Below, one piece after another: positions 620 through 52,751 of a DNA stretch of 64,000 nt. Position numbers and translations under genes: made by a program. How positions within the stretch are numbered: the stretch's first letter is position 1; the number at the start of each line of letters is the position of its first letter. The notes below the pieces were generated by a model. It had not been told where the DNA came from. It saw only the letters and a program-made list of their open reading frames with translations, and searched no databases. Source of the DNA: an uncultured virus (IMG/VR IMGVR_UViG_3300042892_000790) (taxonomy: Duplodnaviria > Heunggongvirae > Uroviricota > Caudoviricetes > Crassvirales). The DNA is taken from IMG/VR virus record IMGVR_UViG_3300042892_000790; one strand, written 5' to 3'.

Positions 620-1047
620 TTCTCCGCGATGTTTAAGGTGATGTCTCTGCCGTCCACCAGAAGAACCAAGTACATGTTGTCGCAGGCCATCATCTCTGAG
701 TACTGCATGATGTAGTTTGCCGTGTCTTGCTTTAAGTTGTCCTTGCTCGTGTGCTTGGTTGTTCCCTCTACCCACTTGTACTCGGCCGGCATCGGTAGAA
801 TCTGGCCGAAGCAGAAGTCATACGCAAATCCATCTTCAGATAAGTTGTCGAGTAGTTTTACGATGTTCCCCTTCTTGGGCTTGCATGTCTGACAGATGAC
901 GACCTTGTGGGTCTCGTCTATCGGGTCTGAGATGGCATGTCCGTCACCGCATGCACATGTGTGCAGTGTTAGGATGTCTGACTGGGTGCCATGGATTTGA
1001 GACAGAAGGCTTCGAGCCTCTGCCGAGTTGGTTGCGTAGTATATCAT
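616..1047 (-). CDS. hypothetical early protein with CxC/CxxC motifs
   Basis: 143-aa ORF in a tightly packed operon. Confidence 0.65.
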   Translation of the reverse strand: MIYYATNSAEARSLLSQIHGTQSDILTLHTCACGDGHAISDPIDETHKVVICQTCKPKKGNIVKLLDNLSEDGFAYDFCFGQILPMPAEYKWVEGTTKHTSKDNLKQDTANYIMQYSEMMACDNMYLVLLVDGRDITLNIAEK

Positions 1048-1280
1048 TCTTTACAAATTGCTAGTTCTGTTTGTGAAATGAACTCGGAGAAGTATCCGTG
1101 CTCAAATAAAAAGTCCTCAAACTCCTCGGAGTTACCCACACTGATTGATATCAGTGGGAATCCCTTGGAGTCTTTGCCGTTAGATGTAACGCTGAAGCAT
1201 TCAGCGTAGGCCATGATGCATGGCTCTTCCACTATCACGATTGATGGGAAGGTTTCGATTAGTATATCTTTAAATTCCAT
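1044..1280 (-). CDS. hypothetical acidic protein (MEFKDILIETF...)
   Basis: ATG at 1280 follows an A-rich leader; ATGA overlap with next gene. Confidence 0.6.
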   Translation of the reverse strand: MEFKDILIETFPSIVIVEEPCIMAYAECFSVTSNGKDSKGFPLISISVGNSEEFEDFLFEHGYFSEFISQTELAICKE

Positions 1281-1339
1281 ATTTCTTTTAATTAAAGAGC
1301 GACCCAGCAATCGCTCTTTTACAACAAAACACAACAATA

Positions 1340-1634
1340 TTTCACAACCTTTCGTTGAGGGCTAGTGCTGGCTAGCCTTTGTGCACGGGACGGGCTTCGA
1401 ACCCTGTTCATATCCCGTGCTGTTCACCGCATCACCCCATGGTGCTCCACCCATGATTCTAAGGACTGGGACTCAGTCCAGTGTGCGTACATAGTGGTCA
1501 GTCATTCGACTGCCAAATTACTTTTCCAATATGTCAAAGAACATGGCAAGACATTTATGTCTTGTCCTTAACCCCAAGCGATCCGACTTGGCTTAGTACA
1601 CGGGACTCGTGTAGGTGTTGTACTAGGTTGGGGA
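1340..1634 (-). ncRNA. structured intergenic RNA cassette: hairpins, boxA-like 13-mer, tRNA-like minihelix
   Basis: No credible ORF; serial hairpins (CAAGACAT/ATGTCTTG, CAGTC/GACTG, GGACTG/CAGTCC, TACACG/CGTGTA); GTTCTTTGACATA at 1530-1542. Confidence 0.6.
1382..1420 (-). ncRNA. tRNA-like minihelix (acceptor stem + T-loop)
   Basis: GCACGGGA-UAUGAA-CAGGG-UUCGAAG-CCCG-UCCCGUGC-A. Confidence 0.5.
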
Positions 1635-1796
1635 TTAACCCAACTCTAGTATTTCGTATTGAGCCACATCGCTAGATGATTCTTCAACAACATTGTATGC
1701 GTGTTCCTCTGCCTCATCCTTGCTAGGGAAGAACATCTTCCTAGTCCATAGGTCGTTTCCCTCCTCGTCTTGATATATAATCTTAAATTCAACCAT
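1635..1796 (-). CDS. hypothetical acidic protein (53 aa, MVEFKIIYQDEEGND...)
   Basis: Read manually, below ORF-track cutoff; overlaps the upstream stop. Confidence 0.65.
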   Translation of the reverse strand: MVEFKIIYQDEEGNDLWTRKMFFPSKDEAEEHAYNVVEESSSDVAQYEILELG

Positions 1797-2196
1797 GTCT
1801 TAGAATTCTTAAGAAGTCTTCAGAAGTGATGAATGTTACTGCGTCGCATCCACGAAGGTTGTCGATGACTGCCTTTGGCTTAGCGAGGGGAGAGAAGAAT
1901 ACAAGGTCACCCCTTCTTTTCTCGAAGATAATCTCGTAGCACACCTCGAAGTCTCTGACTATCTCGTATACATGAACCAGTTCCGCTCCGCATAGTGCGT
2001 GAACTAATGACTGGGATGGGTACTCGATGCCGTATCTTACACTATCATCGCTGAAGTCGTGACCATCCTCGCAAAAAGACTCGCTCTCGTCGTCGTGTAG
2101 TTCATAGACCTCGTAGTTGGCCTCGTGTAGGTACTTGGCAACCTTGGGTTGCAGAATGTACCATGTAAATCCGTCTTGTGTTGTGAATGTGTTCAT
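1789..2196 (-). CDS. hypothetical acidic early protein
   Basis: 135-aa ORF, operon packing. Confidence 0.7.
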   Translation of the reverse strand: MNTFTTQDGFTWYILQPKVAKYLHEANYEVYELHDDESESFCEDGHDFSDDSVRYGIEYPSQSLVHALCGAELVHVYEIVRDFEVCYEIIFEKRRGDLVFFSPLAKPKAVIDNLRGCDAVTFITSEDFLRILRHG

Positions 2197-2417
2197 ATCG
2201 TGATTGTATTTAATTCTTGATACATGATGATTACCCTTGTTGGGTAAGCCTCCTTTAGTGCAACGAGCAGTTCGTCGTTGTTATAGTACCCATTGCCGTA
2301 CCTCTCGGACATTACAATCGGTGCGATTACGTCTACAATTTCCTTCTCGTTAAGGTCAGTAGTTAGGATGAAGTTCTCTTCATCGAATGCGGTGGTGTTG
2401 ATTTCAAATGTTTTCAT
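2193..2417 (-). CDS. hypothetical early protein
   Basis: MKTFEINTTAFDEENF...; operon packing. Confidence 0.65.
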   Translation of the reverse strand: MKTFEINTTAFDEENFILTTDLNEKEIVDVIAPIVMSERYGNGYYNNDELLVALKEAYPTRVIIMYQELNTITI

Positions 2418-2459
2418 ATCTGTATGCAATATTAGTTACTATCTTGTTTATAACCTAAT

Positions 2460-2678
2460 TTATTTGTCGTTGAATTGTAATATTTTATTTCTCTCAAGGC
2501 TGGTGATTACGCAGTAGTCGTCCCAGCCCTTCAGTTGTTCGAGCAGTTCGTATATGCCGTCCAATGAGTCTATCTCAAAGATGTCAGCCTCGTTCTGCTT
2601 GATTAAGTTTACTACCTCTTCGTAGTTGCCCTCGGCATAGTAGTGAATGGCACGTAGCCCAGTTAAAATGTATTTCAT
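2460..2678 (-). CDS. hypothetical early protein
   Basis: 72-aa ORF, operon packing. Confidence 0.65.
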   Translation of the reverse strand: MKYILTGLRAIHYYAEGNYEEVVNLIKQNEADIFEIDSLDGIYELLEQLKGWDDYCVITSLERNKILQFNDK

Positions 2679-2679
2679 G

Positions 2680-3135
2680 TTAGTTGATTATAAAGTCAGT
2701 CCTTAAGTTCAATGTCTCCACCTCTTCGTCGGTGATGCCGGTGCCATTAATAATCCATTTGCTGAATGGGTATGGGCTATCGTCGGTTGCTCTGCAGTTG
2801 AATGCCTTGCGACCTATAAGTTTGTTCAACTCATTGGTGTACCCGTGAACTTCACCGGCAAGCCCATTCATGTTGGTACTGACTTGGTGTAGGTTTGAAT
2901 TTTGCTTAATCCATATATCCATTAGTTCAAAGATTTCATTCATAATGGTATGGCTATACTCTTCAAAGAACTTGCCCAGCATCTCGTTGCACCGGTCGTC
3001 GTTGTATAGTTTGTAGACATCATCGTCGCTTAAAGGTGCATCGTGGTTCTCCTCGCTGTAACGTACAATTGCGTTTCGCATGTCATTTGCCTCCCATAAT
3101 AGGCAACAATCGGTGATAATTTTTTTGTTTTTCAT
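2680..3135 (-). CDS. hypothetical early protein
   Basis: 151-aa ORF abutting neighbours. Confidence 0.7.
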   Translation of the reverse strand: MKNKKIITDCCLLWEANDMRNAIVRYSEENHDAPLSDDDVYKLYNDDRCNEMLGKFFEEYSHTIMNEIFELMDIWIKQNSNLHQVSTNMNGLAGEVHGYTNELNKLIGRKAFNCRATDDSPYPFSKWIINGTGITDEEVETLNLRTDFIIN

Positions 3136-3136
3136 A

Positions 3137-3403
3137 TCAGTCTAGTAGTATTTTGAATCCTTTGTAAACACCAGCCTTGTAGTTCTTGCTTTGGTGAAAT
3201 AATTTCCTTGATAACAATATCGCCGTGATGGACGTGAACTTGATTTCTATTTGGTCAAGCACCCCCTCAATTGTCTTGCCGTCTCTCAATGCCTCGATAA
3301 CGTCCTCTCGTGTTGTTACCTCTGGGTTGTCGAATGTTCCGCTTATCCTCGCTTGTATGTGAGCATCCGCGATGGCCTTGGTTTGCTTGCTTATCCTTTT
3401 CAT
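3137..3403 (-). CDS. hypothetical early protein
   Basis: MKRISKQTKAIADAH...; operon packing. Confidence 0.65.
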   Translation of the reverse strand: MKRISKQTKAIADAHIQARISGTFDNPEVTTREDVIEALRDGKTIEGVLDQIEIKFTSITAILLSRKLFHQSKNYKAGVYKGFKILLD

Positions 3404-3405
3404 GA

Positions 3406-3675
3406 TTAGTCCTCCCATCCATTAGACCAGTACCTTACAGCATTGGCGTACGTTCCCTTTGTGCATCCTTTCAACTCATCCCGTGACGGGATAACGTTTC
3501 CGTAGTAGTCGGTGAATGATTTCTTTGGTAGCATGCAGATGCCCATCTCGAGCAGTCGCATTGCCTCGCGTCCCATTGAGCCTTCCATCTTCCAAACCGA
3601 GCCGTTGTTGATGAGTCGTTGCATGTAGTCAACTCCCGCTGACTTTTGTCTTGAGTAAATTGTTTGTATATTCAT
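3406..3675 (-). CDS. hypothetical early protein (MNIQTIYSRQ...)
   Basis: ATG 1 nt after the ACCA of the tRNA-like element; globular-looking C-terminal part of ORF 3406..3966. Confidence 0.7.
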   Translation of the reverse strand: MNIQTIYSRQKSAGVDYMQRLINNGSVWKMEGSMGREAMRLLEMGICMLPKKSFTDYYGNVIPSRDELKGCTKGTYANAVRYWSNGWED

Positions 3676-3676
3676 A

Positions 3677-3724
3677 TGGTTCCCAAGGTCAGACTCGAAC
3701 TGACGGCATGCCATTGGCTTGGGA
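3677..3724 (-). ncRNA. anticodon-less tRNA mimic with 3' ACCA
   Basis: UCCCAAG-(13 nt)-GUCAG-UUCGAGU-CUGAC-CUUGGGA-ACCA: perfect 7-bp acceptor stem, 5-bp T-stem and canonical 7-nt T-loop. Confidence 0.75.
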
Positions 3725-3731
3725 TGGGACG

Positions 3732-4046
3732 TTAGTCCTCGTCGCGTAGCATCATCTTTGCTAACGCCTCGTGAAGTTCCTTTGGTACAAAGTCCTCGAC
3801 GTGTCGGTACTCTTGAATCAGTCGCTGGATGTAAATCGAAAGGCTTTGAAGTTCCACTGCCTCGTTGGGGCTGGGCTCCACCAACTCGACGTTGGTGTAC
3901 GTCTCGATGATGTTGCACTGCTCCAACTCCTCGTGGTTCACCTTGTCGTCGTTGTCTCCAAGCCAATCGTGTACCTCTTGGATGTTCTCTGCATCTACTA
4001 CCAACTCCGTGGCGTAGGTTCTGCTAATTACTACGTTGTATTTCAT
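3732..4046 (-). CDS. hypothetical acidic early protein
   Basis: 104-aa ORF, operon packing. Confidence 0.7.
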   Translation of the reverse strand: MKYNVVISRTYATELVVDAENIQEVHDWLGDNDDKVNHEELEQCNIIETYTNVELVEPSPNEAVELQSLSIYIQRLIQEYRHVEDFVPKELHEALAKMMLRDED

Positions 4047-4306
4047 TTTAAGTTCTCCTTTATGTATTGTTTGAATTCATTGCTTGTTCTCATGTAGACC
4101 TTGTCTACCAGTACCCATGTCGCGTTGCTCCACTTGTAGTTCGTCTTGATTTGGTTCCCTCCGTAGAGGTAGAACTCTTGCTCAATGAACACGTCTGGCT
4201 TGATGTTTGAGAATACGCTCTCGTTTACCCGTTGGTACTCCTCGTTGAAGTACTTGTCAGACAATTTTAAGAACTCCTCGATGGTGAATTTTTGTTCAGT
4301 GCTCAT
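4043..4306 (-). CDS. hypothetical early protein
   Basis: 87-aa ORF with ATGA overlaps. Confidence 0.65.
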   Translation of the reverse strand: MSTEQKFTIEEFLKLSDKYFNEEYQRVNESVFSNIKPDVFIEQEFYLYGGNQIKTNYKWSNATWVLVDKVYMRTSNEFKQYIKENLK

Positions 4307-4893
4307 TTTAGTTTGTTGATTAGGTTGATGATGTTGTCCAATTGGGTCATGTGATTCTCGTAGTAGTCGCTCATGTCAGCAATCCTTGAGTGGTTGTGCA
4401 GTTCGTTGAACTCGTCCATCGCCACGTCCAATGTGTGTAGCATGGCATCGAAGTCCTCGGACTTGTAGTCACCTAGGCCGGCCTCTTCTGGCTCGTCTCC
4501 CTCTCTCATGAGTCGGTACTCGGATCCACTAGCGCAGTCCCATATGGCCTCTTGGTCATGGTGCTGGCCTAGAACGATGGCGACCTCCTTGGTTTGTACG
4601 TTCTCAGAAATGTCGAAGACGAATCGGCCGGCATTGACCCAGCATCCCATGTAGTAGTTCGGGTCGGCCAACTGCTCAGCATGGCGGAGGAAGTAAGACC
4701 TACCGAATGCGATAAGGTCGCAACCACTTGGAGCCGTCTCCTCGTATCCCTTGATGGATACCATGAAGCCATGGTCGGGGTTGTGGTCGCCCGTGTTGAT
4801 GTTGTAGGAGAAACCGATGTGGTTTGTTTCAGCGTTGCGCAAGTGTGCGATGAGTGTGTTGTGGCTAGTGCCCATTACGATAGTTGATTTCAT
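4303..4893 (-). CDS. early protein, possible SAM-lyase/DUF3293-like fold plus acidic tail
   Basis: Motif G-C-W...F-D-I-S...A-I-V-L-G-x4-Q-E-A-I-W-D. Confidence 0.4.
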   Translation of the reverse strand: MKSTIVMGTSHNTLIAHLRNAETNHIGFSYNINTGDHNPDHGFMVSIKGYEETAPSGCDLIAFGRSYFLRHAEQLADPNYYMGCWVNAGRFVFDISENVQTKEVAIVLGQHHDQEAIWDCASGSEYRLMREGDEPEEAGLGDYKSEDFDAMLHTLDVAMDEFNELHNHSRIADMSDYYENHMTQLDNIINLINKLK

Positions 4894-4904
4894 GTCTATG
4901 TTTA

Positions 4905-5123
4905 TTAGTCGTTAAATTCGGTGTAGTAAAAGTCATCGTTGGTCAAGTACTCTTCGTAGTACTCGCACAAGTCATGGCTAAGGTGGAACCAAGATGACTC
5001 GTATGACTTCTCAGAGATGATGTCTCTGCACTTGTCAGAGCATGCGTAGTGTTCGCCTTGGTCGAAGACGTAAACGTTGTGGCTGGGTGTTCCGCAGTGG
5101 GAACATGTTCTTTGTGTTTCCAT
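4905..5123 (-). CDS. small zinc-finger protein
   Basis: CSHC...ACSDKC; first gene after hammerhead 3. Confidence 0.65.
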   Translation of the reverse strand: METQRTCSHCGTPSHNVYVFDQGEHYACSDKCRDIISEKSYESSWFHLSHDLCEYYEEYLTNDDFYYTEFND

Positions 5124-5136
5124 GTCTTGTTGTTTT

Positions 5137-5192
5137 GGTTAAGAGGGCTGGATGTCCAGCCCTTTCGTCTATTGAAGACTCATCAGTTAACC
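5137..5192 (-). ncRNA. type I hammerhead ribozyme HH3 (cleavage after CUC, 5143|5142)
   Basis: GGUUAA CUGAUGA GUCU UCAAU AGAC GAAA GGGCUGG ACAU CCAGCCC UC UUAACC. Confidence 0.92.
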
Positions 5193-5588
5193 TTTTCTTG
5201 ACGCTATCCAAAGTTGGGCGCGATGGTTCATCTCTGACTCAGACAATACCACGTCGATGAAGTCGGTTCCATCTAGGTTCACCACGTTCAATACTATGAT
5301 TTGGTTTCCCTCGTCTACAAATACGTGGTATCCGTTCTCCTCGAACCATAGCCATGCCATCTGAAATTCAGTCCTACTTGGGGCTTGGCTCATGACTTTG
5401 TGTAGGTCGGTATCTTGGAAGTGCATCTCGCTTCCGTCCAAGAAGTACAAGGTCTGGCGTGTGCCGTCGATGGTCTCCACGATGTGGGCTCTGACCTCGC
5501 CGTGCTCGATTACTTCGTACATGCTGTCGTCCTCGCTTGAGATGATGTAAGGCCATTTTACTTCGGGTAATTTGTTTAAGTGCTTCAT
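5187..5588 (-). CDS. hypothetical early protein
   Basis: 133-aa ORF; its last codons GGU UAA are stem I of HH3. Confidence 0.7.
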   Translation of the reverse strand: MKHLNKLPEVKWPYIISSEDDSMYEVIEHGEVRAHIVETIDGTRQTLYFLDGSEMHFQDTDLHKVMSQAPSRTEFQMAWLWFEENGYHVFVDEGNQIIVLNVVNLDGTDFIDVVLSESEMNHRAQLWIASRKG

Positions 5589-5595
5589 GTTCTTG

Positions 5596-5805
5596 TTATT
5601 TTAGTTGGGCGATTACCTTGTTGGATAGGCTCACATAGAGACTGCTATGGACAAAGAAGTTGTTGTACTTCTCGGGGTCTTCGGCTATGTCTTGTAGCGT
5701 TAATTCCATGATTCTCTCGATGCGCTCAGTTAAAAGTGCAACCTCGATGGTGTCAAGGCTCTTGATTAGGCCTCTTAATTTTTGTTCGTTGGTCTTGTTT
5801 TTCAT
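5596..5805 (-). CDS. hypothetical early protein (MKNKTNEQKLR...)
   Basis: ATG 20 nt after the HH2 cut site, same AGAC-AUG context as the sister genes. Confidence 0.7.
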   Translation of the reverse strand: MKNKTNEQKLRGLIKSLDTIEVALLTERIERIMELTLQDIAEDPEKYNNFFVHSSLYVSLSNKVIAQLK

Positions 5806-5819
5806 GTCTTTGTTGTTTT

Positions 5820-5875
5820 GGTTAAGATGGGGTGCTTCCACCCCATTTCGTCTATTAAAGACTCGTCAGTTAACC
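5820..5875 (-). ncRNA. type I hammerhead ribozyme HH2 (cleavage after AUC, 5826|5825)
   Basis: GGUUAA CUGACGA GUCU UUAAU AGAC GAAA UGGGGUG GAAG CACCCCA UC UUAACC. Confidence 0.92.
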
Positions 5876-6370
5876 TTTGGTGAACGTCATGTCGTACTCT
5901 TGGCTTCTCTTGGTCATCCATGCCCTAGCCTCTCTGCTGGTGCCTACCATGACCATCTCGCCCGTTTCTGGGTTGTGGAACTTGCCGTATGAGATGTTGA
6001 ACGTCTTCGAGTCCTCAATCTCTTGCATCAGAGCCTTCGCGCCTTCGATGTCCTCGGCCAGAAGGAACTTGTGTAGGTCTTTGTAGTTCCTCCCGTCGGC
6101 AGTCACTTGGCTCTTGTCTAGGCGGTAGAATCCGCCCGATGTGATGCCTCCGCCGTAGCCAAAGTCACCGAACAAGCGCAGTCCATCTGGTAGTGTGTAC
6201 TCTACAAAGTAGCGGTCGTAGTCGTATCCGTCTCCCTTTGCTACATGGTAGAATACCACGTCGGTGTACCTAGAGACCATCTGGTCAATGTTTTTCTCCC
6301 ATGTCTGGGGGTTGTACTCACGTCCTTCGCAAGAACGGATTTGGTCGGGGGTTAAGATTTGTGCCTTCAT
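5870..6370 (-). CDS. hypothetical early protein flanked by hammerheads
   Basis: 166-aa ORF; ends GGU UAA = stem I of HH2. Confidence 0.75.
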   Translation of the reverse strand: MKAQILTPDQIRSCEGREYNPQTWEKNIDQMVSRYTDVVFYHVAKGDGYDYDRYFVEYTLPDGLRLFGDFGYGGGITSGGFYRLDKSQVTADGRNYKDLHKFLLAEDIEGAKALMQEIEDSKTFNISYGKFHNPETGEMVMVGTSREARAWMTKRSQEYDMTFTKG

Positions 6371-6383
6371 GTCTGTGTGTGTT

Positions 6384-6439
6384 GGTTAAGACGGGGCTGG
6401 TGAGCCCCGTTTCGTCCATTTAGGACTCGTCAGTTAACC
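6384..6439 (-). ncRNA. type I hammerhead ribozyme HH1 (cleavage after GUC, 6390|6389)
   Basis: GGUUAA CUGACGA GUCC UAAAU GGAC GAAA CGGGGC UCACCA GCCCCG UC UUAACC. Confidence 0.93.
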
Positions 6440-6772
6440 TTACTTGAATAGTTCGTGCCCTACTCGGAAGTTGCGCCTCTCCTCTCTCTCGCCAGCCTCT
6501 GAGATTTGAAATTTGGCGTTGTTCAAGAAAGTGATGAACTCCCTCTGGCTCGCGTCGTCCGTGAATCCCCATGTCATGAGGTAGGTCTCGTTGTAGCGAA
6601 CTTGAGCGATGATTTGAACGCTTGGCAAGGAGCCCCTCTCGTGGAACTTGGTTCCATAGGATAGGCTGAAGCCGTCGTCAGATTTGAAGGTGCCGTTGCT
6701 CTCAGCGTTGCGGGTGTACTGGCTCCATGTGATGTTGGAGATTGCCTTGATGAATTGTTGTGAAGTTTCCAT
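6440..6772 (-). CDS. first early protein, hypothetical
   Basis: 110-aa ORF between the tRNA mimic and HH1. Confidence 0.7.
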   Translation of the reverse strand: METSQQFIKAISNITWSQYTRNAESNGTFKSDDGFSLSYGTKFHERGSLPSVQIIAQVRYNETYLMTWGFTDDASQREFITFLNNAKFQISEAGEREERRNFRVGHELFK

Positions 6773-6791
6773 GTTTATGTTTGTTTAATTT

Positions 6792-6840
6792 TGGTTGCAT
6801 CCCCTAGAATCGACAAGGCTGGAAGGCTGACTTGGATGCA
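6792..6840 (-). ncRNA. anticodon-less tRNA mimic with 3' ACCA
   Basis: UGCAUCC-(15 nt)-CCUUG-UCGAUU-CUAGG-GGAUGCA-ACCA. Confidence 0.6.
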
Positions 6841-7128
6841 GTTTAGATTGGCAAGCCTAGACCCCTAGACCTTTACCGCTGAAGGACTATCAGCGAACCC
6901 GTTGTGCCCCACAATTCACGCCTTATACCACTTTGTTGTACCATCAGCCACCCGTACTATGGGTGGCCTACTCTCCGAGGTTGTGAGCCTCAAGGCGCTC
7001 ATGTCTTTTTGGACTTTTATCAGTATGTCAAAGAACTCCCAAGCAGAGCCGACGCAATGTCGGGGTCTAGAAAGGCTTGGCTATGGAAAGCCCCTCGGGG
7101 CAGACAACCATAGTATGAATCAGAACTC
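6841..7128 (-). ncRNA. long structured 5' leader of the early operon with boxA-like element
   Basis: Stems CUAUGG/CCAUAG, GCCCC/GGGGC, GCCACCC/GGGUGGC, CGCCUU/AAGGCG, CGCUGA/UCAGCG, long-range CUAGACCCC/GGGGUCUAG; GTTCTTTGACATA at 7024-7036. Confidence 0.65.
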
Positions 7129-7132
7129 AATA

Positions 7133-7174
7133 CAATGATACGACCGATTGTTGACAACACCAAACATGTCAACA
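7133..7174 (-). promoter_or_regulatory. putative early promoter (TTTG-N20-TATCATTG) overlapped by palindrome TGTTGACA-N10-TGTCAACA
   Basis: One-mismatch match to the Bacteroidota -33/-7 consensus; perfect 8-bp inverted repeat 7149-7174. Confidence 0.5.
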
Positions 7175-7344
7175 TTTATTTTCAACTTTGTTTAAGGATT
7201 TTCGCAACTGATTTGAAAACCTTGTACGGATTATCGCAACTGACTATCAAGGCCTTGCAGATGGCAGATTCATGATGCGACCATGGGCGAGGTGTAATGG
7301 AAACTCTGAGCGTTTCCGCAGTTTCCGTAGGTCGTGAGCCCAAC

Positions 7345-7520
7345 ACGGGGCGCGGGTCGGGGCACCCACCTAGGGCACGGGCGGGCGGTTAGGGTAGGCA
7401 CGGGGCACCCCCTAGGAAAGGCCAAAAATTCGGGGCAAGGCCGACCCCCCGCACCCCCATGGGGCAAAAATAATCGGTTTTCCCAGCGGCCGGCGCGACG
7501 CAATATGGGGGTATTGCCCA
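7345..7520. other. GC-rich, G-run-rich non-coding tract between divergent operons
   Basis: Many GGG/GGGG runs; far more GC-rich than flanks. Confidence 0.55.
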
Positions 7521-7761
7521 AAACCTCAGCATATCTGGTACTCATCGGTATTGTACTCATAGGTATAAACTGCTCTTAAAAATATCAACCTTTAGGTTTA
7601 CTTTTGCCACATGGCTATAGAAATATCATTACTTTTCCCCTCCGCCTTTTTGATTGGCGTCGAGTACTTCAAGTCGAACTATCCTGGCGAGCACCAAGAG
7701 ATCGACATCAGCTTGTTTTTGTTCAGAATTACTTTTATCTGGTAGTCCCTATCTTTGCGTT

Positions 7762-7944
7762 ATGAAGAAACCATTAAACAATCCAATGCCACCACAGATG
7801 TCTGGCATCGCTAAGATGGCCGAGGCCAAGTCACAGATGAAGCAGATGAAGAAGACCATGATGATGGCAGAAGCCATGGCAATGGCGAAGAGGATGAGCG
7901 ACATGCCGATGACCATGAAGGTGAAAGGCAGCTGCGGTAAGTAG
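7762..7944 (+). CDS. Met/Lys-rich small protein (60 aa, 15 Met)
   Basis: TATCTTTG 4 nt before ATG; terminator follows. Confidence 0.7.
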   Translation: MKKPLNNPMPPQMSGIAKMAEAKSQMKQMKKTMMMAEAMAMAKRMSDMPMTMKVKGSCGK

Positions 7945-7977
7945 TCAAATTGCAAACCCCTTAATTAAGATCACCTA

Positions 7978-8004
7978 AAGGCACCCTGATTTGGGTGCTT
8001 TTTT
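7978..8004 (+). terminator. intrinsic terminator
   Basis: AGGCACCC-TGATTT-GGGTGCTT-TTTT. Confidence 0.75.
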
Positions 8005-10235: not shown

Positions 10236-10260
10236 AAAGGGGCCTAATGGTCCCTTTTTT
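10236..10260 (+). terminator. intrinsic terminator
   Basis: AAAGGGGCC-TAAT-GGTCCCTTT-TTT. Confidence 0.7.
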
Positions 10261-10288
10261 GTTTATATTTGCACAAATTAAATCAAAT

Positions 10289-11860
10289 ATGATCGTTAAA
10301 GAAGTTGAATTTGGGGCCGAGGCCCGTGAAAAGCTAGTGTCTGGTATAGACATTATAGCAAATGCCGTAAAGAGCACCTTGGGTGCACGTGGACAGACCG
10401 TTCTGATCGAGTCAGACCAGTACACACACGGTATCCACATCACAAAAGACGGGGTCAGTGTGGCTAGGTCCATCATCTTGGACGACCCCACGCAGAACCT
10501 TGCGGTACAAATGGTAAAAGAGGCATCCGAGAAGACGGCGACAGCTGCTGGAGACGGTACCACGACCTCGATTGTGCTGACACAAGGGCTGATCCATGGC
10601 TCTCAGCAGTTCATGAAGGCCGAAGACAACCCGACAAAGGTGTTGAGAGAGGTAAAAGAGCTAGCACTGTCAGTTGCGCAGGCATTGGACACGATGGCTA
10701 TCCCTGTTACAGACGATTCTATGGCCTCTGTAGCCACGATCTCTGCCAACAATGACCCAGAGCTAGGGCAGATCATCTCAGACGCTTACAGCATGGTTGG
10801 AAAGGACGGCGTGGTGACCGTTGAGACGTCTCAAAGCTCAAAGACTTACTCTGAGGTGGTATCTGGCATGAAGCTGGGCCGCGGATGGATGTCAAAGTAC
10901 TTCGTGACTGACCAGAAGAAGGGAGAGGCGATCCTAGAGGACTGCTACATCTTGATATCTGACCAGGAGATTACATCATTGAACAATATCGAGCACCTGC
11001 TGGCACCGGTGGTGCAGAGCGGCAAGAGTATACTCATTATCGCCGAGATGTCGGAGAACGCTCTGAACTCTCTTAACCTTAACAGGTTGAAGGGCGTGAT
11101 CAGGGCATGTGCGATCGTTCCACCGAGCTTCGGACACATGAGATCCGAGATCATGGAGGACATCGCAGCAGCTACCGGAGCACGATTCATCTCTGACGGA
11201 ACGGGAGATAATTTATCTCTCGTATCCTTTACTGATTTAGGCCATGCCCAGAAGGTGGTGGTCGGAAAGGAGTCGACGATCGTTATCACTGATAACGATC
11301 TGTCTGACGAGTTATCGTTACGTATCGAGGGCATCCGCAATAACCTGGCAGAGGCTACCAACGAGGGTGTGAAGAAGTTCTTGGAGGAGAGGCTCGCTAA
11401 CCTTGCGGGTGGTGTTGGCGTTATCCACGTCGGAGCGCAGAGCGATGTCGAGATGAAGGAGAAGAGGGACCGTGTAGAGGACGCAGTGTACGCGACCAAG
11501 GCAGCGATGGAGGGAGGCATTCTGCCTGGAGGTGGTATTGCACTGTTGAACATAGCCGGAGAGATCTGCGGATGCTCTACAGCTAAGAGCATTATCAAGT
11601 ACGCACTGCAGCAGCCATTCAATACGATCTTAGAGAACGGCGGGTATGACCCGAACGAGGTGAAGGGGGACATTGCCCTAAACTATCAAAATAGTTTCGG
11701 GTATGGCTTCGACGTGAAGGAGGGAGTTGTAGGGAACATGATCGAGATGGGAATCATCGACCCTTTGAAGGTTACCAAGAGCGCACTGGAGAACGCTGTA
11801 AGCGTTGCAACGACGATCTTGAGCACCAACTGTATCATCACTAACGTAAGAGCAAAATGA
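10289..11860 (+). CDS. groEL: chaperonin GroEL
   Basis: TLGARG, ITKDGVSVA, AGDGTTT, GGVGVIHVGA, GGGIAL, GIIDPLKV. Confidence 0.97.
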   Translation: MIVKEVEFGAEAREKLVSGIDIIANAVKSTLGARGQTVLIESDQYTHGIHITKDGVSVARSIILDDPTQNLAVQMVKEASEKTATAAGDGTTTSIVLTQGLIHGSQQFMKAEDNPTKVLREVKELALSVAQALDTMAIPVTDDSMASVATISANNDPELGQIISDAYSMVGKDGVVTVETSQSSKTYSEVVSGMKLGRGWMSKYFVTDQKKGEAILEDCYILISDQEITSLNNIEHLLAPVVQSGKSILIIAEMSENALNSLNLNRLKGVIRACAIVPPSFGHMRSEIMEDIAAATGARFISDGTGDNLSLVSFTDLGHAQKVVVGKESTIVITDNDLSDELSLRIEGIRNNLAEATNEGVKKFLEERLANLAGGVGVIHVGAQSDVEMKEKRDRVEDAVYATKAAMEGGILPGGGIALLNIAGEICGCSTAKSIIKYALQQPFNTILENGGYDPNEVKGDIALNYQNSFGYGFDVKEGVVGNMIEMGIIDPLKVTKSALENAVSVATTILSTNCIITNVRAK

Positions 11861-13071: not shown

Positions 13072-13653
13072 ATGAGTTGGGACAACTGTCCCTACCATTA
13101 CTATGGACAGGCCGTAAACTTCAAACAGAGAGCGTCGTCTCACCTAAGAACGATGAGGTCTGGAAAGCACAAGAACCCAAGAGTACAAGCTATTTTTAAT
13201 AAGTACGGAGATCCAAAGATTGAGATTATAGTGTACTGCTCTATCGAGGAACTAAACAGGATGGAGCAGATATTTTTAGACACTTATCACGGAATGCCAT
13301 TTTGTTTAAACATAGACCCGATTGCGTCTTCAAGAAAGGGATGCGTTCCATCTGATCAACAAAAAAGAAAACAATCCCAGTCTATGACCGGGAGATTTGT
13401 GGGTGATAAAAACCCATACTACGGAATGTCTCACAGTGAAGAGACGATCAAGAAAATGAAGCTGGCATGGACAAAGAGATCCAAAAGGGTAACCAATTCA
13501 TGTATTTTACTAAACAAAGAGACCGGAATATTTTACGAGAGCATGGTAGAGGCTGCAAGGTCCATCAGTATGAATGTAAAAACCTTTAGAAATTACTTCA
13601 TGACCAAACCTCGTGGTAAATATGCAAAAGACTTTTGTTTCATAAAGGTTTAG
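13072..13653 (+). mobile_element. free-standing GIY-YIG homing endonuclease with NUMOD3 repeats
   Basis: (AIY)...YYGQA..R...H...H.N...FNKYG...EQ; NUMOD3-like NPYYGMSHSEETIKKM. Confidence 0.75.
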
Positions 13654-13666
13654 TATCTTTGTAAGG

Positions 13667-14689
13667 ATGATTGGAATTGCAATAGCAAATAGTATAGGTA
13701 TTCGGCGCTCATCCAGTTCTGCCCCAGTAGTCCCAATAGCGACTGCTGCGACCGGCATTGGACAAACTTCATTTACTGCAAACTGGAACGCTTTTACTGG
13801 AGCTTCTTACTATTTGCTTGACGTTTCATTAAACTCTTCTTTTTCATCATTTGTCGGATCATACCAAAACTTTGTCGTACTTTCTACTTCTCAGTTGGTG
13901 AGTGGTCTGACTGCAAGCACAACTTACTATTACAGACTGCGTGCAGCCACAGGCGTTGACGCTGACGCTGCTGCTTTCTTTAGTCGTGTATACACAGCAG
14001 GTGGTGCATTGTCCTACACAGAGGTGAGCGCTACCGAGACATTGGTTTCTACCATGAAAGCAGACGGAATTTGGACGGCCATGCGTGCTGTGTATCCCAT
14101 GGTTGGGGCAAGTGCGGCAGCGTGTGCGCAAAACTTAAAGAGTGCAAGTTTTACAGGTGCTTTTTTTGGAGGTGTAACTTTTGCAAGTACAGGCATAACC
14201 AGTAATGGGACTACGGGATATTTTGGTACTACCTATAATCCTAGTGTAAGCGGTTTATTAGATTCCGCACATTTAAGCGTTTATTCAAGGACAAATAATG
14301 GAGGCGCAAATGTTGACTTTGGTTCGAATGCACCGGCGCATTTTTTAACATACAATTTTGGTAATTTTGCTGGCTTAAATTCAAACGATAGCCCGACTTT
14401 TTCCACATTTCCAACATCCGATGGAATGTTGATTGGGTCAAGGACTGTCTCTACAGAGGCTAGATTTTTTCATAAAGGAGGTGCGGCTGTTGTTAGCACA
14501 AGAACATCAACTTCACGACCTAATCAGCCCTTAAGTTTATGTGCGTTGAATAATAATGGTAGTAATGCTTTTTTTACAACAAGAGAATACGCTTTTGCTT
14601 CAATAGGTGACGGATTAACCGATACACAAGCGGGTAATTTTTATACCGCAGTTCAAGCGTTTCAAACAACACTTTCAAGGCAAATATAA
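13667..14689 (+). CDS. virion fibre/decoration protein (FN3 + lectin-like domain)
   Basis: FN3 motif TSFTANW...YLLDVS...SGLTASTTYYYRLRA; S/T/G-rich. Confidence 0.7.
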   Translation: MIGIAIANSIGIRRSSSSAPVVPIATAATGIGQTSFTANWNAFTGASYYLLDVSLNSSFSSFVGSYQNFVVLSTSQLVSGLTASTTYYYRLRAATGVDADAAAFFSRVYTAGGALSYTEVSATETLVSTMKADGIWTAMRAVYPMVGASAAACAQNLKSASFTGAFFGGVTFASTGITSNGTTGYFGTTYNPSVSGLLDSAHLSVYSRTNNGGANVDFGSNAPAHFLTYNFGNFAGLNSNDSPTFSTFPTSDGMLIGSRTVSTEARFFHKGGAAVVSTRTSTSRPNQPLSLCALNNNGSNAFFTTREYAFASIGDGLTDTQAGNFYTAVQAFQTTLSRQI

Positions 14690-52646: not shown

Positions 52647-52751
52647 TAGCCAAGGAGGGATTTGAACCCTCAGTTCCTAAGTCTATGGATTTCACATATT
52701 TCGGAGGCCCATCTCTGGGGTAGCTCCGCTTCGGATATACGACACTTGGCT
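52647..52751 (-). ncRNA. tRNA-like RNA with non-canonical middle
   Basis: AGCCAAG/CUUGGCU-A acceptor stem; GAGGG-UUCAAAU-CCCUC T-arm; long CGGAG/CUCCG hairpin replaces D and anticodon arms. Confidence 0.6.

What the first reader, a model, noticed from the sequence alone, without database searches (positions are those of the whole stretch)
3677..3724. 48-nt anticodon-less tRNA mimic ending in ACCA, 1 nt before a start codon
Seen: perfect 7-bp acceptor stem, 5-bp T-stem, canonical UUCGAGU loop and encoded ACCA, with only 13 nt in place of the D and anticodon arms. It fills the whole intergenic gap, like the hammerheads. Known: the acceptor plus T-arm is the minimal substrate of RNase P, RNase Z and the CCA-adding enzyme. 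Inference: a second punctuation device using host tRNA-processing enzymes (3' cleavage would leave a leaderless mRNA), or a decoy for tRNA-targeting defences.
Basis: partly seen in the sequence, partly recalled or inferred. Interest (0 to 1): 0.8.

Follow-up and report, generated by a model that had tools for sequence, protein, structure and literature searches.

The report
Anticodon-less tRNA mimic between phage genes
A 48-base RNA shaped like the top half of a transfer RNA sits between two early genes of an uncultured flavobacterial-type phage; it belongs to a large, uncatalogued phage family that most likely marks where host tRNA-trimming enzymes cut long messages into single-gene pieces.

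Summary
On the minus strand, 3724..3677 has a perfect 7-bp acceptor stem, a 13-nt connector with a GG, a 5-bp T stem closed by G-C, loop UUCGAGU and ACCA. One base follows, then the ATG of an 89-aa gene.

It is not chance. A strict descriptor finds 1 hit in the window against 0.02 per shuffle. Relatives keep the architecture with compensatory changes: 8 of 12 pairs in the window's subtype and 11 of 13 in a sister subtype. Related phage contigs carry 1-8 copies each, all in short gaps of one small-gene operon, on the coding strand. Rfam and ARAGORN do not recognise it.

The window's operon also has three hammerhead ribozymes in equivalent gaps. These leave 19-20-nt leaders, the same spacing as the typical mimic-to-ATG distance.

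Best reading (0.55, not shown): a cis signal cut by host RNase P and/or RNase Z, like plant-mitochondrial t-elements.

The ACCA tail and 1-nt spacing are not family traits. Tails are NCCA or NCAA, and this lineage has lost its leader. Nothing supports a decoy role.

The parts
3677..3724 (-). The 48-nt tRNA top-half mimic: acceptor 3724..3718 with 3687..3681; connector 3717..3705 (GG at 3712..3711); T stem 3704..3700 with 3692..3688; T loop 3699..3693; unpaired A 3680; CCA 3679..3677
   Evidence: Sequence read. Strict descriptor: 1 hit against 0.02 per shuffle. Subtype alignment A6: 100% of cells paired and 8 of 12 pairs changed on both sides.
3725..3731 (-). C-rich single-stranded 5' flank (CGUCCCA) between the upstream TAA and the element
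   Evidence: Across 51 distinct copies, positions -5..-2 are C in 32-38 of 51, and -1 can pair with the base after the acceptor in only 2 of 51.
3732..4046 (-). Upstream 104-aa gene (no family match). In every syntenic relative examined, an element of this architecture directly follows its homologue.
   Evidence: Synteny and element positions in G002-G006.
3406..3675 (-). Downstream 89-aa gene (weak phrog_3908 / DUF7417 match). Its ATG at 3675 lies 1 nt after the encoded CCA.
   Evidence: Homologues align from residue 1 at 92-100% identity behind different upstream sequence, so 3675 is the real start.
6384..6439 (-). Hammerhead ribozyme 1 (type I) filling the gap between genes 6440..6772 and 5870..6370. 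The cut is predicted between 6390 and 6389, leaving a 19-nt leader.
   Evidence: Rfam RF00163, 34.6 bits against a gathering score of 34. Anatomy.
5820..5875 (-). Hammerhead 2. Stem I includes the upstream stop TAA (5872..5870). The cut is predicted between 5826 and 5825, leaving a 20-nt leader to the ATG at 5805.
   Evidence: Core and stems read. Only a weak Rfam match (RAGATH-1-hammerhead, 25.5 bits, E 0.83).
5137..5192 (-). Hammerhead 3. Stem I includes the stop TAA (5189..5187). The cut is predicted between 5143 and 5142, leaving a 19-nt leader to the ATG at 5123.
   Evidence: Weak Rfam match (30.7 bits, E 0.059).
1383..1420 (-). Second, degenerate tRNA-like element ('type B'). The acceptor is intact, but the connector is 8 nt shorter and the T stem is reduced to about 3 bp. 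It lies in a 451-nt non-coding stretch behind a Bacteroidota-type promoter motif.
   Evidence: Intact homologues in G004, G005 and G006 show a C-G to U-A compensatory change in the acceptor.

Best explanation
The element is a cis-acting mimic of the tRNA top half (acceptor stem, T arm and a GG that stands in for the D loop), transcribed inside a polycistronic early mRNA of a flavobacterial-type phage. It works like a plant-mitochondrial t-element. Host RNase P would cut at its 5' edge (between 3725 and 3724). Host RNase Z, or exonucleases in the CCA-bearing copies, would act at its 3' edge (after A3680 or after CCA3677). This separates the upstream 104-aa cistron from the downstream 89-aa cistron and releases a minihelix of 44-48 nt. 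It is the host-enzyme-dependent counterpart of the three self-cleaving hammerheads in other gaps of the same operon.

Shown: the structure, its conservation through compensatory changes, its strict placement between genes, and its spacing.

Inferred: that it is cut, by which enzymes, and to what benefit. Possible benefits are separate stabilities for each cistron, a defined short leader, and protected ends.
For: 1. tRNA-specific features are the conserved ones. In the 27-sequence alignment A4 the T-stem closing pair is G-C in 27 of 27 and the GG and T-loop bases are invariant. The other stem positions vary freely but stay paired: 98.9% of cells paired, 11 of 13 pairs changed on both sides, covariation 0.813 against 0.149 in shuffles. 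The window's own subtype (A6, 9 distinct sequences) is 100% paired, with 8 of 12 pairs changed on both sides.

2. A test that does not select on pairing. A pattern specifying only the 5' half matched 22 places in 13 viral contigs, and 22 of 22 had perfectly complementary 3' halves. The same pattern matched 2 places in 185,579 bacterial species genomes, and 0 of 2 paired.

3. Placement. Thirteen of 13 further phage records have 1-8 model hits each. In each record they cluster in one region of a few kb, on one strand, which is the coding strand in 10 of 10 clusters. They typically start 6-10 nt after a stop codon, or overlap it by 1-3 nt, and end 14-20 nt before the next ATG.

4. The helix end is kept exact. 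Base -1 can pair with the base after the acceptor in only 2 of 51 distinct copies. Both flanks are C/A-rich and mutually non-complementary. End-processing enzymes need exactly this.

5. Equivalence with hammerheads. The window's three hammerheads fill the same kind of gap and leave 19-, 20- and 19-nt leaders. The distance from acceptor end to ATG clusters at 19-20 nt. tRNA-mimic-rich operons have almost no hammerheads: 0 at Rfam gathering score and 2 unverified core matches in 65.6 kb. The window's group has 1-4 hammerheads and 1-2 mimics per record.

6. A relative carries a 60-nt version with D arm, T arm and acceptor but no anticodon arm, scoring 45.2 bits on the Rfam tRNA model. This links the family to tRNA.

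7. The probable hosts are Bacteroidota. The terminase's relatives in GenBank are Flavobacterium and Cellulophaga phages. Most tRNA genes of that group do not template CCA (PMC5143459, passage read). From established tRNA biology, not from that paper, such tRNAs have their 3' ends made by RNase Z followed by CCA addition. That fits the CCA-less majority of the family.

8. Precedent. t-elements direct RNase P and RNase Z cuts that make mRNA ends in plant mitochondria (PMC1920247, passages read).
Against: - No cleavage is shown. No RNA run was available.
- The covariance models built from the sister subtype do not find the window's element. R1 gives nothing at E <= 10. R2 gives only a local T-arm match of 9.5 bits, E 2.8. 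The link between subtypes therefore rests on shared architecture and on the same position behind homologous genes, not on a model score.
- Rows of A4 and A6 were chosen with a descriptor that demands pairing, so their paired percentages are partly by construction.
- In G002, G003 and G004 the upstream stop codon overlaps the first two acceptor bases. An RNase P cut there would remove the stop codon. Plant nad6 and ccmC t-elements do the same.
- In this window the structure ends 5 nt before the ATG. Uncut, it would sit on the ribosome landing site. The encoded CCA is, from memory of Bacillus work, an anti-determinant for RNase Z.
- Base -1 is A or C (22 each of 51), not the U that I recall bacterial RNase P preferring.
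- Some copies in relatives keep the outer stem and flanks but replace the T-loop hairpin with other hairpins, for example loop AGCGAAA. tRNA mimicry is therefore not obligatory in all members.
- No phage-encoded tRNA-processing enzyme was found among 47 window proteins. This is neutral if host enzymes act.
Confidence: 0.55

Rival explanations
1. The element is a structural mRNA element that is not cut. It could act as a folded insulator or stabiliser sitting about 19 nt upstream of start codons to keep the A/C-rich leader unstructured. It could protect mRNA ends made elsewhere, or interact with the ribosome at termination or re-initiation.
For: There is regular spacing to the upstream stop (6-10 nt) and to the next ATG (14-20 nt, clustering at 19-20). 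About 19-20 nt is roughly what I recall an initiating ribosome covering upstream of the AUG, so this spacing does not need cleavage to explain it. Some relatives replace the T-loop hairpin with other hairpins while keeping the outer stem.
Against: It does not explain why tRNA-specific details are invariant: the G-C closing pair in 27 of 27, the T-loop bases and the GG. It does not explain why the helix end is kept exact (2 of 51). The equivalent slots in this operon hold self-cleaving ribozymes, whose only known activity is cutting. In this window the structure ends 5 nt before the ATG, which would hinder initiation rather than help it.
Confidence: 0.15
2. The released (or embedded) minihelix acts in trans. 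It could be a decoy or sponge for a host protein that binds the acceptor/T-arm half of tRNA, such as a tRNA-end-modifying toxin, a defence nuclease, the CCA-adding enzyme or an aminoacyl-tRNA synthetase. It could also be an aminoacylatable minihelix.
For: The element has all that acceptor-end-binding proteins see, and in 6 of 13 copies of the window's architecture it has an encoded NCCA end. There are several copies per genome, in an early operon, when host takeover happens. The acceptor sequence GAACUGC/GCAGUUC is conserved in the sister subtype while its T stems vary.
Against: A trans-acting RNA needs no fixed place between a stop and a start codon, yet placement is strict. Acceptor sequences differ between subtypes and covary. 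The window's 3' half matches no bacterial genome exactly, so it copies no known host tRNA end: 0 matches in 185,579 species genomes. Anticodon nucleases cannot be decoyed by an RNA without an anticodon.
Confidence: 0.12
3. The element is the substrate of a dedicated phage-encoded endonuclease, or is itself a new small self-cleaving RNA that only resembles a tRNA top half.
For: It occupies the same slots as hammerheads. Neighbourhoods of known ribozymes have yielded new ribozyme classes before (recalled). The flanks are conserved: a C-run 5', and A at the fourth base after the acceptor in 48 of 51. Variants with the same outer stem have different interiors.
Against: Every invariant base is accounted for by tRNA mimicry, and no further conserved core is visible. 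Outer-stem sequences differ between subtypes. No nuclease family was found among 47 window proteins, although most of the small early proteins match no family at all.
Confidence: 0.08
4. The element is a decaying remnant of a phage tRNA gene, a recombination linker, or a phage attachment site copied from a host tRNA 3' end, with no RNA function of its own.
For: The element is found between different gene pairs, and in G002 and G003 it stays with the upstream gene when an extra gene is inserted. The window's 'type B' copy is degenerate.
Against: Compensatory changes in 8 of 12 and 11 of 13 pairs show selection for pairing. G-U pairs on the sense strand, 2 cells in A4 and 1 in A6, would be C-A mismatches on the other strand, which points to RNA. 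There is no exact copy of the 3' half in 185,579 bacterial species genomes. Up to 8 copies per operon is not how attachment sites occur.
Confidence: 0.05

Closest known systems
t-elements of plant mitochondria (Forner et al. 2007, PMC1920247; passages read)
   Same: They are non-decoding tRNA-like structures with a conserved T arm, embedded in mRNA precursors. Their borders coincide with mRNA 5' and 3' ends and they are taken to direct RNase P and RNase Z cuts. The released t-element carries non-encoded C and A additions. Some cuts fall inside reading frames, as the stop-codon overlap in G002-G004 would imply here.
   Different: They are organellar rather than phage elements. They are usually longer, imperfect cloverleaves (74 nt for cox1), scattered singly and not arrayed gap after gap. 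Here the element is reduced to 44-48 nt with no D stem or anticodon arm, occurs up to 8 times per operon, and shares its role with hammerheads. Cleavage has been shown for t-elements and not for this element.
tRNA punctuation of animal mitochondrial transcripts (recalled; the abstracts of PMC5716156 and PMC4787750 in the listing state it)
   Same: Polycistronic transcripts are resolved by RNase P and RNase Z acting on tRNA-shaped spacers between genes.
   Different: There the spacers are functional tRNAs. Here they cannot decode.
Clustered hammerhead ribozymes flanking genes in phage and prophage operons (Perreault et al. 2011, PMC3088659, passages read; review PMC6765202, passages read)
   Same: They occupy the same slots in the same operon and leave the same leader length. 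Processing of polycistronic transcripts is likewise proposed for them and still untested.
   Different: Hammerheads cut themselves. This element has no hammerhead core and would depend on host enzymes.
tRNA-like domain of tmRNA (recalled; not matched: ARAGORN finds no tmRNA, and the Rfam tmRNA model does not match the element)
   Same: A 7-bp acceptor, an unpaired D-loop analogue with GG, a T arm and an ACCA end, with no anticodon arm. Topologically the window's element is that domain with the long connecting helix removed.
   Different: There is no G3-U70 alanine identity pair (C3-G70 here), no mRNA-like module and no pseudoknots. It is 48 nt rather than about 360 nt.
Other non-tRNA substrates of bacterial RNase P: phage phi80 M3 RNA, the C4 antisense RNA of phages P1 and P7, operon mRNAs (review PMC11143913, passage read)
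   Same: They are phage or operon RNAs cut by RNase P at tRNA-like or hairpin features.
   Different: They are single, idiosyncratic sites. They are not a covarying family of minimal tRNA mimics arrayed between genes.
mascRNA at the 3' end of MALAT1 (recalled)
   Same: A tRNA-like module is excised by RNase P and RNase Z to make the 3' end of the upstream RNA, and it receives CCA.
   Different: It is eukaryotic, a full cloverleaf and a single copy.

Membership tests
tRNA (Rfam RF00005 / ARAGORN) | Anticodon stem-loop | tested here: not met
   Only 13 nt lie between the acceptor and the T stem. ARAGORN finds 0 genes. The Rfam tRNA model gives no match at E <= 10.
tRNA (Rfam RF00005 / ARAGORN) | 7-bp acceptor stem stacked on a 5-bp T stem; G53-C61 closing pair; T-loop UUCRANN | tested here: met
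   Read and conserved in A6. The sister subtype has a 6-bp T stem (13-bp stack), and its sixth pair covaries.
tRNA (Rfam RF00005 / ARAGORN) | D arm with G18-G19 that dock on the T loop | tested here: inconclusive
   There is no D stem. A GG is invariant in the connector, but its docking cannot be tested by sequence. In the window's subtype CC..GG could instead form a 2-3-bp mini-hairpin.
t-element-type processing signal | Non-canonical tRNA-like fold with a conserved T arm inside an mRNA precursor, next to coding regions | tested here: met
   No promoter-like or terminator-like site lies at 3677..3731, so the two genes are probably co-transcribed.
t-element-type processing signal | Cut by RNase P at the 5' edge and RNase Z at the 3' edge, with mRNA ends coinciding with its borders | not testable with these tools
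   No RNA run was listed. Enzyme assays or end-mapping are needed.
tmRNA tRNA-like domain | G3-U70 pair, tag reading frame, pseudoknots | tested here: not met
   Position 3-70 is C-G. The element is 48 nt in all. ARAGORN finds no tmRNA.
Hammerhead ribozyme | CUGANGA ... GAAA core with three stems | tested here: not met
   The core is absent from 3677..3731. My core scan finds it only at the three other gaps.
Intrinsic terminator | G+C-rich hairpin followed by a U run | tested here: not met
   No terminator-like site at the element. The hairpin is followed by ACCAUAUG.
Phage attachment site copied from a host tRNA 3' end | Identity of the T-arm and acceptor 3' half with a host tRNA gene | tested here: not met
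   The 24-nt 3' half has 0 exact matches in 185,579 species genomes. Exact matching only, so a diverged copy would be missed.

The most novel reading that the evidence does not exclude
Phages of Bacteroidota have evolved a minimal, modular 't-element' of 44-48 nt that is interchangeable with hammerhead ribozymes as an intercistronic cutting module. If so, the long-unexplained phage hammerheads and these mimics are two solutions to one task: deliberate gene-by-gene dissection of early messages. In addition, the excised CCA-ending or CCA-completed minihelices would accumulate to high copy number. They would act as a second product, for example by titrating a host factor that binds tRNA acceptor ends or by being aminoacylated.
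Probability: 0.12. Interest if true: 0.85.

Novelty: new variant of a known kind. Interest (0 to 1): 0.68.

Why it matters
Self-cleaving ribozymes between phage genes have been known since 2011, but their purpose is still a proposal (PMC3088659; PMC6765202). A covarying family of tRNA top-half mimics sits in the very same slots, with the same leader spacing. In some phages it replaces hammerheads almost entirely.

This gives an independent argument that cutting between cistrons is the selected function. It also makes the argument testable with two well-understood host enzymes.

It would extend the tRNA-punctuation and t-element principle from organelles to bacterial viruses. It would add an uncatalogued RNA family, absent from Rfam 15, to phage annotation. 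It would also offer a compact natural RNase P/Z-dependent processing module for polycistronic designs in Bacteroidota.

I found no paper describing it in five of my full-text searches. The library lacks most subscription journals, so a prior description cannot be ruled out.

Tried and rejected
- **Rfam.** The gathering scan of the window found only one hammerhead. Permissive scans of 3500..3900 and of three relatives' loci found nothing tRNA-like.
- **Covariance models.** R1 (8 sequences) and R2 (27 sequences) from the sister subtype did not recover the window's element. I did not build a third model.
- **Relaxed descriptor.** Allowing 4-bp T stems, 1 mismatch and a bulge was useless: 23 window hits against 16.5 per shuffle.
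- **Nearest records.** No megablast match of 2000..8000 in GenBank phages. The window's own assembly is not held. The nearest held fragment, G001, lacks the region.
- **RNA evidence.** No RNA holder was listed for window 1000..7600.
- **Host-tRNA copy or attachment site.** 0 exact matches of the 3' half in bacterial genomes.
- **GenBank relatives.** MW202828.1 and Flavobacterium phage NC_055852.1 have no R2-type element. My descriptor and hammerhead scan found nothing in the first 50 kb of MW202828.1.
- **Phage-encoded enzymes.** None of RNase P, RNase Z, CCA-adding enzyme or RNA ligase among 47 window proteins.
- **Direct slot swap.** I looked for the same orthologous junction holding a hammerhead in one genome and a mimic in another. 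I found none among the window and G002-G006.
- **Pattern scans.** They also returned chance or coding matches: 9 of 12 in viral contigs and 51 of 61 in metagenome contigs. These were dropped before A6 was built.
- **Earlier notes of this scan.** Nothing for this genome or sequence. One word query was also empty.

Full report
**What is there.** The genes around the finding lie on the minus strand. Read on that strand, 3724..3677 has the following parts:
- a perfect 7-bp stem (3724..3718 with 3687..3681);
- a 13-nt connector that contains GG (3712..3711);
- a 5-bp stem closed by G-C (3704..3700 with 3692..3688);
- the loop UUCGAGU;
- an unpaired A and CCA.

One U and the ATG at 3675 of an 89-aa gene follow. 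The stop codon of the upstream 104-aa gene is at 3734..3732, so the gap is 56 nt and the element fills 48 nt of it. ARAGORN finds no tRNA or tmRNA in the window. Rfam gives no tRNA-like match to the element even at E <= 10.

**Is it more than chance?** A strict descriptor (perfect 7-bp and 5-6-bp stems, loop TTCRANN) finds only this site in 64 kb, against 0.02 per shuffle in 50 shuffles. Folding energy alone is unremarkable: z -1.59, and 15 of 200 shuffles fold as well. The decisive evidence comes from relatives.

**The host and the operon.** The window is nearly a whole phage genome, with terminase, portal and GroEL. Its terminase is closest to Flavobacterium and Cellulophaga phages in GenBank. 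The leaders lack Shine-Dalgarno sequences and two TAnnTTTG promoter motifs are visible (the consensus is recalled). All of this points to a Bacteroidota host.

The element lies in a minus-strand operon of at least 17 small genes without known function. Three other gaps of this operon are filled by type I hammerheads: 6439..6384, which is over the Rfam threshold, and 5875..5820 and 5192..5137, whose cores and stems I read. The latter two have only weak Rfam matches. Each hammerhead embeds or abuts the upstream TAA in stem I and is predicted to leave a leader of 19, 20 or 19 nt.

**Relatives of the window's element.** The 89-aa protein has 26 related loci in viral contigs. In the syntenic relatives G002-G006, an element of this architecture always follows the homologue of the 104-aa gene:
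- G005 and G006 have the window's sequence type.
- G002, G003 and G004 have a different acceptor and T-stem sequence, and their stop codon overlaps the first two acceptor bases.
- In G002 and G003 an extra gene lies between the element and the 89-aa gene, so the element travels with the upstream gene.

Pattern scans for the window's subtype found one further viral contig, and 10 fully paired copies among 61 matches in metagenome contigs. The other 51 had pairing scores typical of chance. Nine distinct sequences (A6) are 100% paired, with 8 of 12 pairs changed on both sides. The rows were chosen for pairing, so the bimodal split (10 perfect, 51 random-looking) is the fairer statistic.

**The sister subtype.** One relative, G007, has five copies in 4.4 kb. 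A pattern that fixes only the 5' half matched 22 places in 13 viral contigs, and all 22 had perfectly complementary 3' halves. The same pattern hit 2 places in 185,579 bacterial species genomes, and neither pairs.

In the 27-sequence alignment A4, 98.9% of cells pair and 11 of 13 pairs change on both sides. The T-stem closing pair is G-C in 27 of 27, and the GG and T-loop bases are invariant. This subtype has a 6-bp T stem (13-bp stack), and the sixth pair covaries.

A model built from A4 (R2) hits 13 of 13 further records, 1-8 times each. In each record the hits cluster in one region of a few kb, on one strand, which is the coding strand in 10 of 10 clusters.

Against a simple 'one family' claim, neither R1 nor R2 finds the window's element. 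The two subtypes are tied together by architecture and by position behind homologous genes.

**Regularities across 51 distinct copies.**
- The base before the acceptor can pair with the base after it in only 2 of 51.
- The 5' flank is C-rich: positions -5..-2 are C in 32-38 of 51.
- The fourth base after the acceptor is A in 48 of 51.
- The distance from acceptor end to the first ATG clusters at 19-20 nt.
- Elements usually start 6-10 nt after a stop codon or overlap it by up to 3 nt.

The flanks are thus kept single-stranded and mutually non-complementary, and the helix end is exact. tRNA end-processing enzymes require both. The 19-20-nt spacing equals the leader left by the window's hammerheads.

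**What is special about the window's copy.**
- Among the 13 copies with the window's architecture (5-bp T stem, 13-nt connector), the four bases after the acceptor are ACCA in 5, GCCA in 1, GCAA in 5, TCAA in 1 and CCCA in 1. CCA is common but not conserved.
- Only the window and G005 have 5 nt between acceptor and ATG. By my comparison with the leaders of relatives printed, they have lost about 14-17 nt of leader.
- An in-frame ATG at 3714 lies inside the connector. Homologues start at the ATG that corresponds to 3675.

**Link to tRNA.**
- In G027 the operon ends with a 60-nt RNA that has an acceptor, a complete D arm and a T arm but no anticodon arm. It scores 45.2 bits on the Rfam tRNA model and is followed by a terminator-like hairpin.
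- Some copies with the same outer stem carry a covarying 3-bp mini-hairpin where a D arm would be, and other loop sequences in the inner hairpin.
- The family therefore looks like a reduction series from tRNA. Not all members keep a T-loop, which weakens a strict tRNA-mimic reading for those members.

**How it most likely works.** Most tRNA genes of Bacteroidetes do not template CCA (PMC5143459, passage). From general knowledge, their 3' ends are therefore made by RNase Z and CCA addition.

A tRNA top half with an exact helix end and free flanks is a plausible substrate for RNase P at the 5' edge and RNase Z at the 3' edge. Plant mitochondria use such t-elements to make mRNA ends, and the excised pieces receive C and A additions (PMC1920247, passages). 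RNase P is already known to cut phage M3 and C4 RNAs and operon mRNAs (PMC11143913, passage).

I therefore read the element as a host-enzyme-dependent intercistronic cutting signal, the counterpart of the hammerheads (confidence 0.55). The structure, covariation, placement and spacing are shown. The cutting, the enzymes and the benefit are inferred.

For this copy, the encoded CCA may block RNase Z (recalled from Bacillus work). The structure abuts the start codon, so either 3' processing yields a nearly leaderless message or translation of the 89-aa gene is restrained.

**Rivals.**
- An uncut structural insulator or stabiliser: 0.15.
- A trans-acting decoy or chargeable minihelix: 0.12.
- A substrate of an unknown phage nuclease, or a new ribozyme: 0.08.
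- A remnant, recombination linker or attachment site: 0.05.

The attachment-site idea is weakened by 0 exact matches of the 3' half in bacterial genomes. The remnant idea is weakened by the covariation. No RNA data could be obtained.

**Known or new.** Rfam 15 has no family for it. Five of my full-text searches found no description of such elements in phages. Subscription journals are largely outside that library.

Earlier unchecked notes of this scan describe stripped-down tRNA look-alikes beside hammerheads in other uncultured phages. They agree with this reading but are not independent evidence.

I rate it a new variant of a known kind: the t-element or tRNA-punctuation principle in a phage, in a minimal and arrayed form.

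Noticed in passing
window 6384..6439, 5820..5875, 5137..5192 (minus strand): Three type I hammerheads share the frame GGUUAA-CUGANGAG...CGAAA...UC|UUAACC followed by an A/C-rich leader and ATG. Relatives have 1-4 each. Only the first passes Rfam's threshold.
   Followed up: partly
window 1383..1420 (minus strand), within the 451-nt gap 1338..1788: A second tRNA-like element ('type B') is degenerate here and in G002, with a shorter connector and a T stem of about 3 bp. It is intact in G004, G005 and G006, with a compensatory acceptor change. It lies about 100 nt behind a TAnnTTTG-type promoter motif, among other conserved hairpins, so this may be a small-RNA locus.
   Followed up: partly
window 52647..52751 (minus strand): A 105-nt RNA candidate is closed by a perfect 7-bp acceptor-like stem and carries a T arm with about 75 nt in between. 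It lies behind a TAnnTTTG promoter motif, and the 96-aa ORF called there is probably spurious. G006 has a similar 3' end, and two odd-length matches to the tRNA model lie in the same part of G006 (13562..13671 at 39.6 bits; 13754..13862 at 28.6 bits).
   Followed up: partly
L071:284-343 (minus strand; record G027): A 60-nt tRNA-model match (45.2 bits) has an acceptor, a D arm and a T arm but no anticodon arm. It sits at the end of a mimic-rich operon, followed by a terminator-like hairpin.
   Followed up: partly
loci L069-L076 and L037 (alignment A5): Some copies share the outer stem and flanks of the sister subtype but have other interiors. One kind has a covarying 3-bp mini-hairpin plus a hairpin with loop AGCGAAA or AGCGAUA. 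Another has two small hairpins.
   Followed up: no
window 3712..3714 (minus strand): An ATG inside the element's connector is in frame with the 89-aa gene. In this window and in G005 the frame is open through the element, which would allow a 102-aa form. Homologues start at the downstream ATG.
   Followed up: partly
window 6773..7269: A 497-nt gene-free stretch lies at the head of the operon, between divergent gene blocks. It is rich in hairpins and has a weak match to the Rfam DUF2693 RNA (23.8 bits, E 0.27).
   Followed up: no
L072:899-923 (+) and L075:505-528 (-): Two hammerhead-core matches (CUGANGA, 4-bp stem II, GAAA) lie 16-17 nt before an ATG in mimic-rich operons. Rfam did not call them.
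   Followed up: no
window 10247..11860 and 13072..13653: The phage encodes a GroEL-type chaperonin (phrog_5725, E 2.5e-136) and a protein with a NUMOD3 motif, which is typical of homing endonucleases.
   Followed up: no
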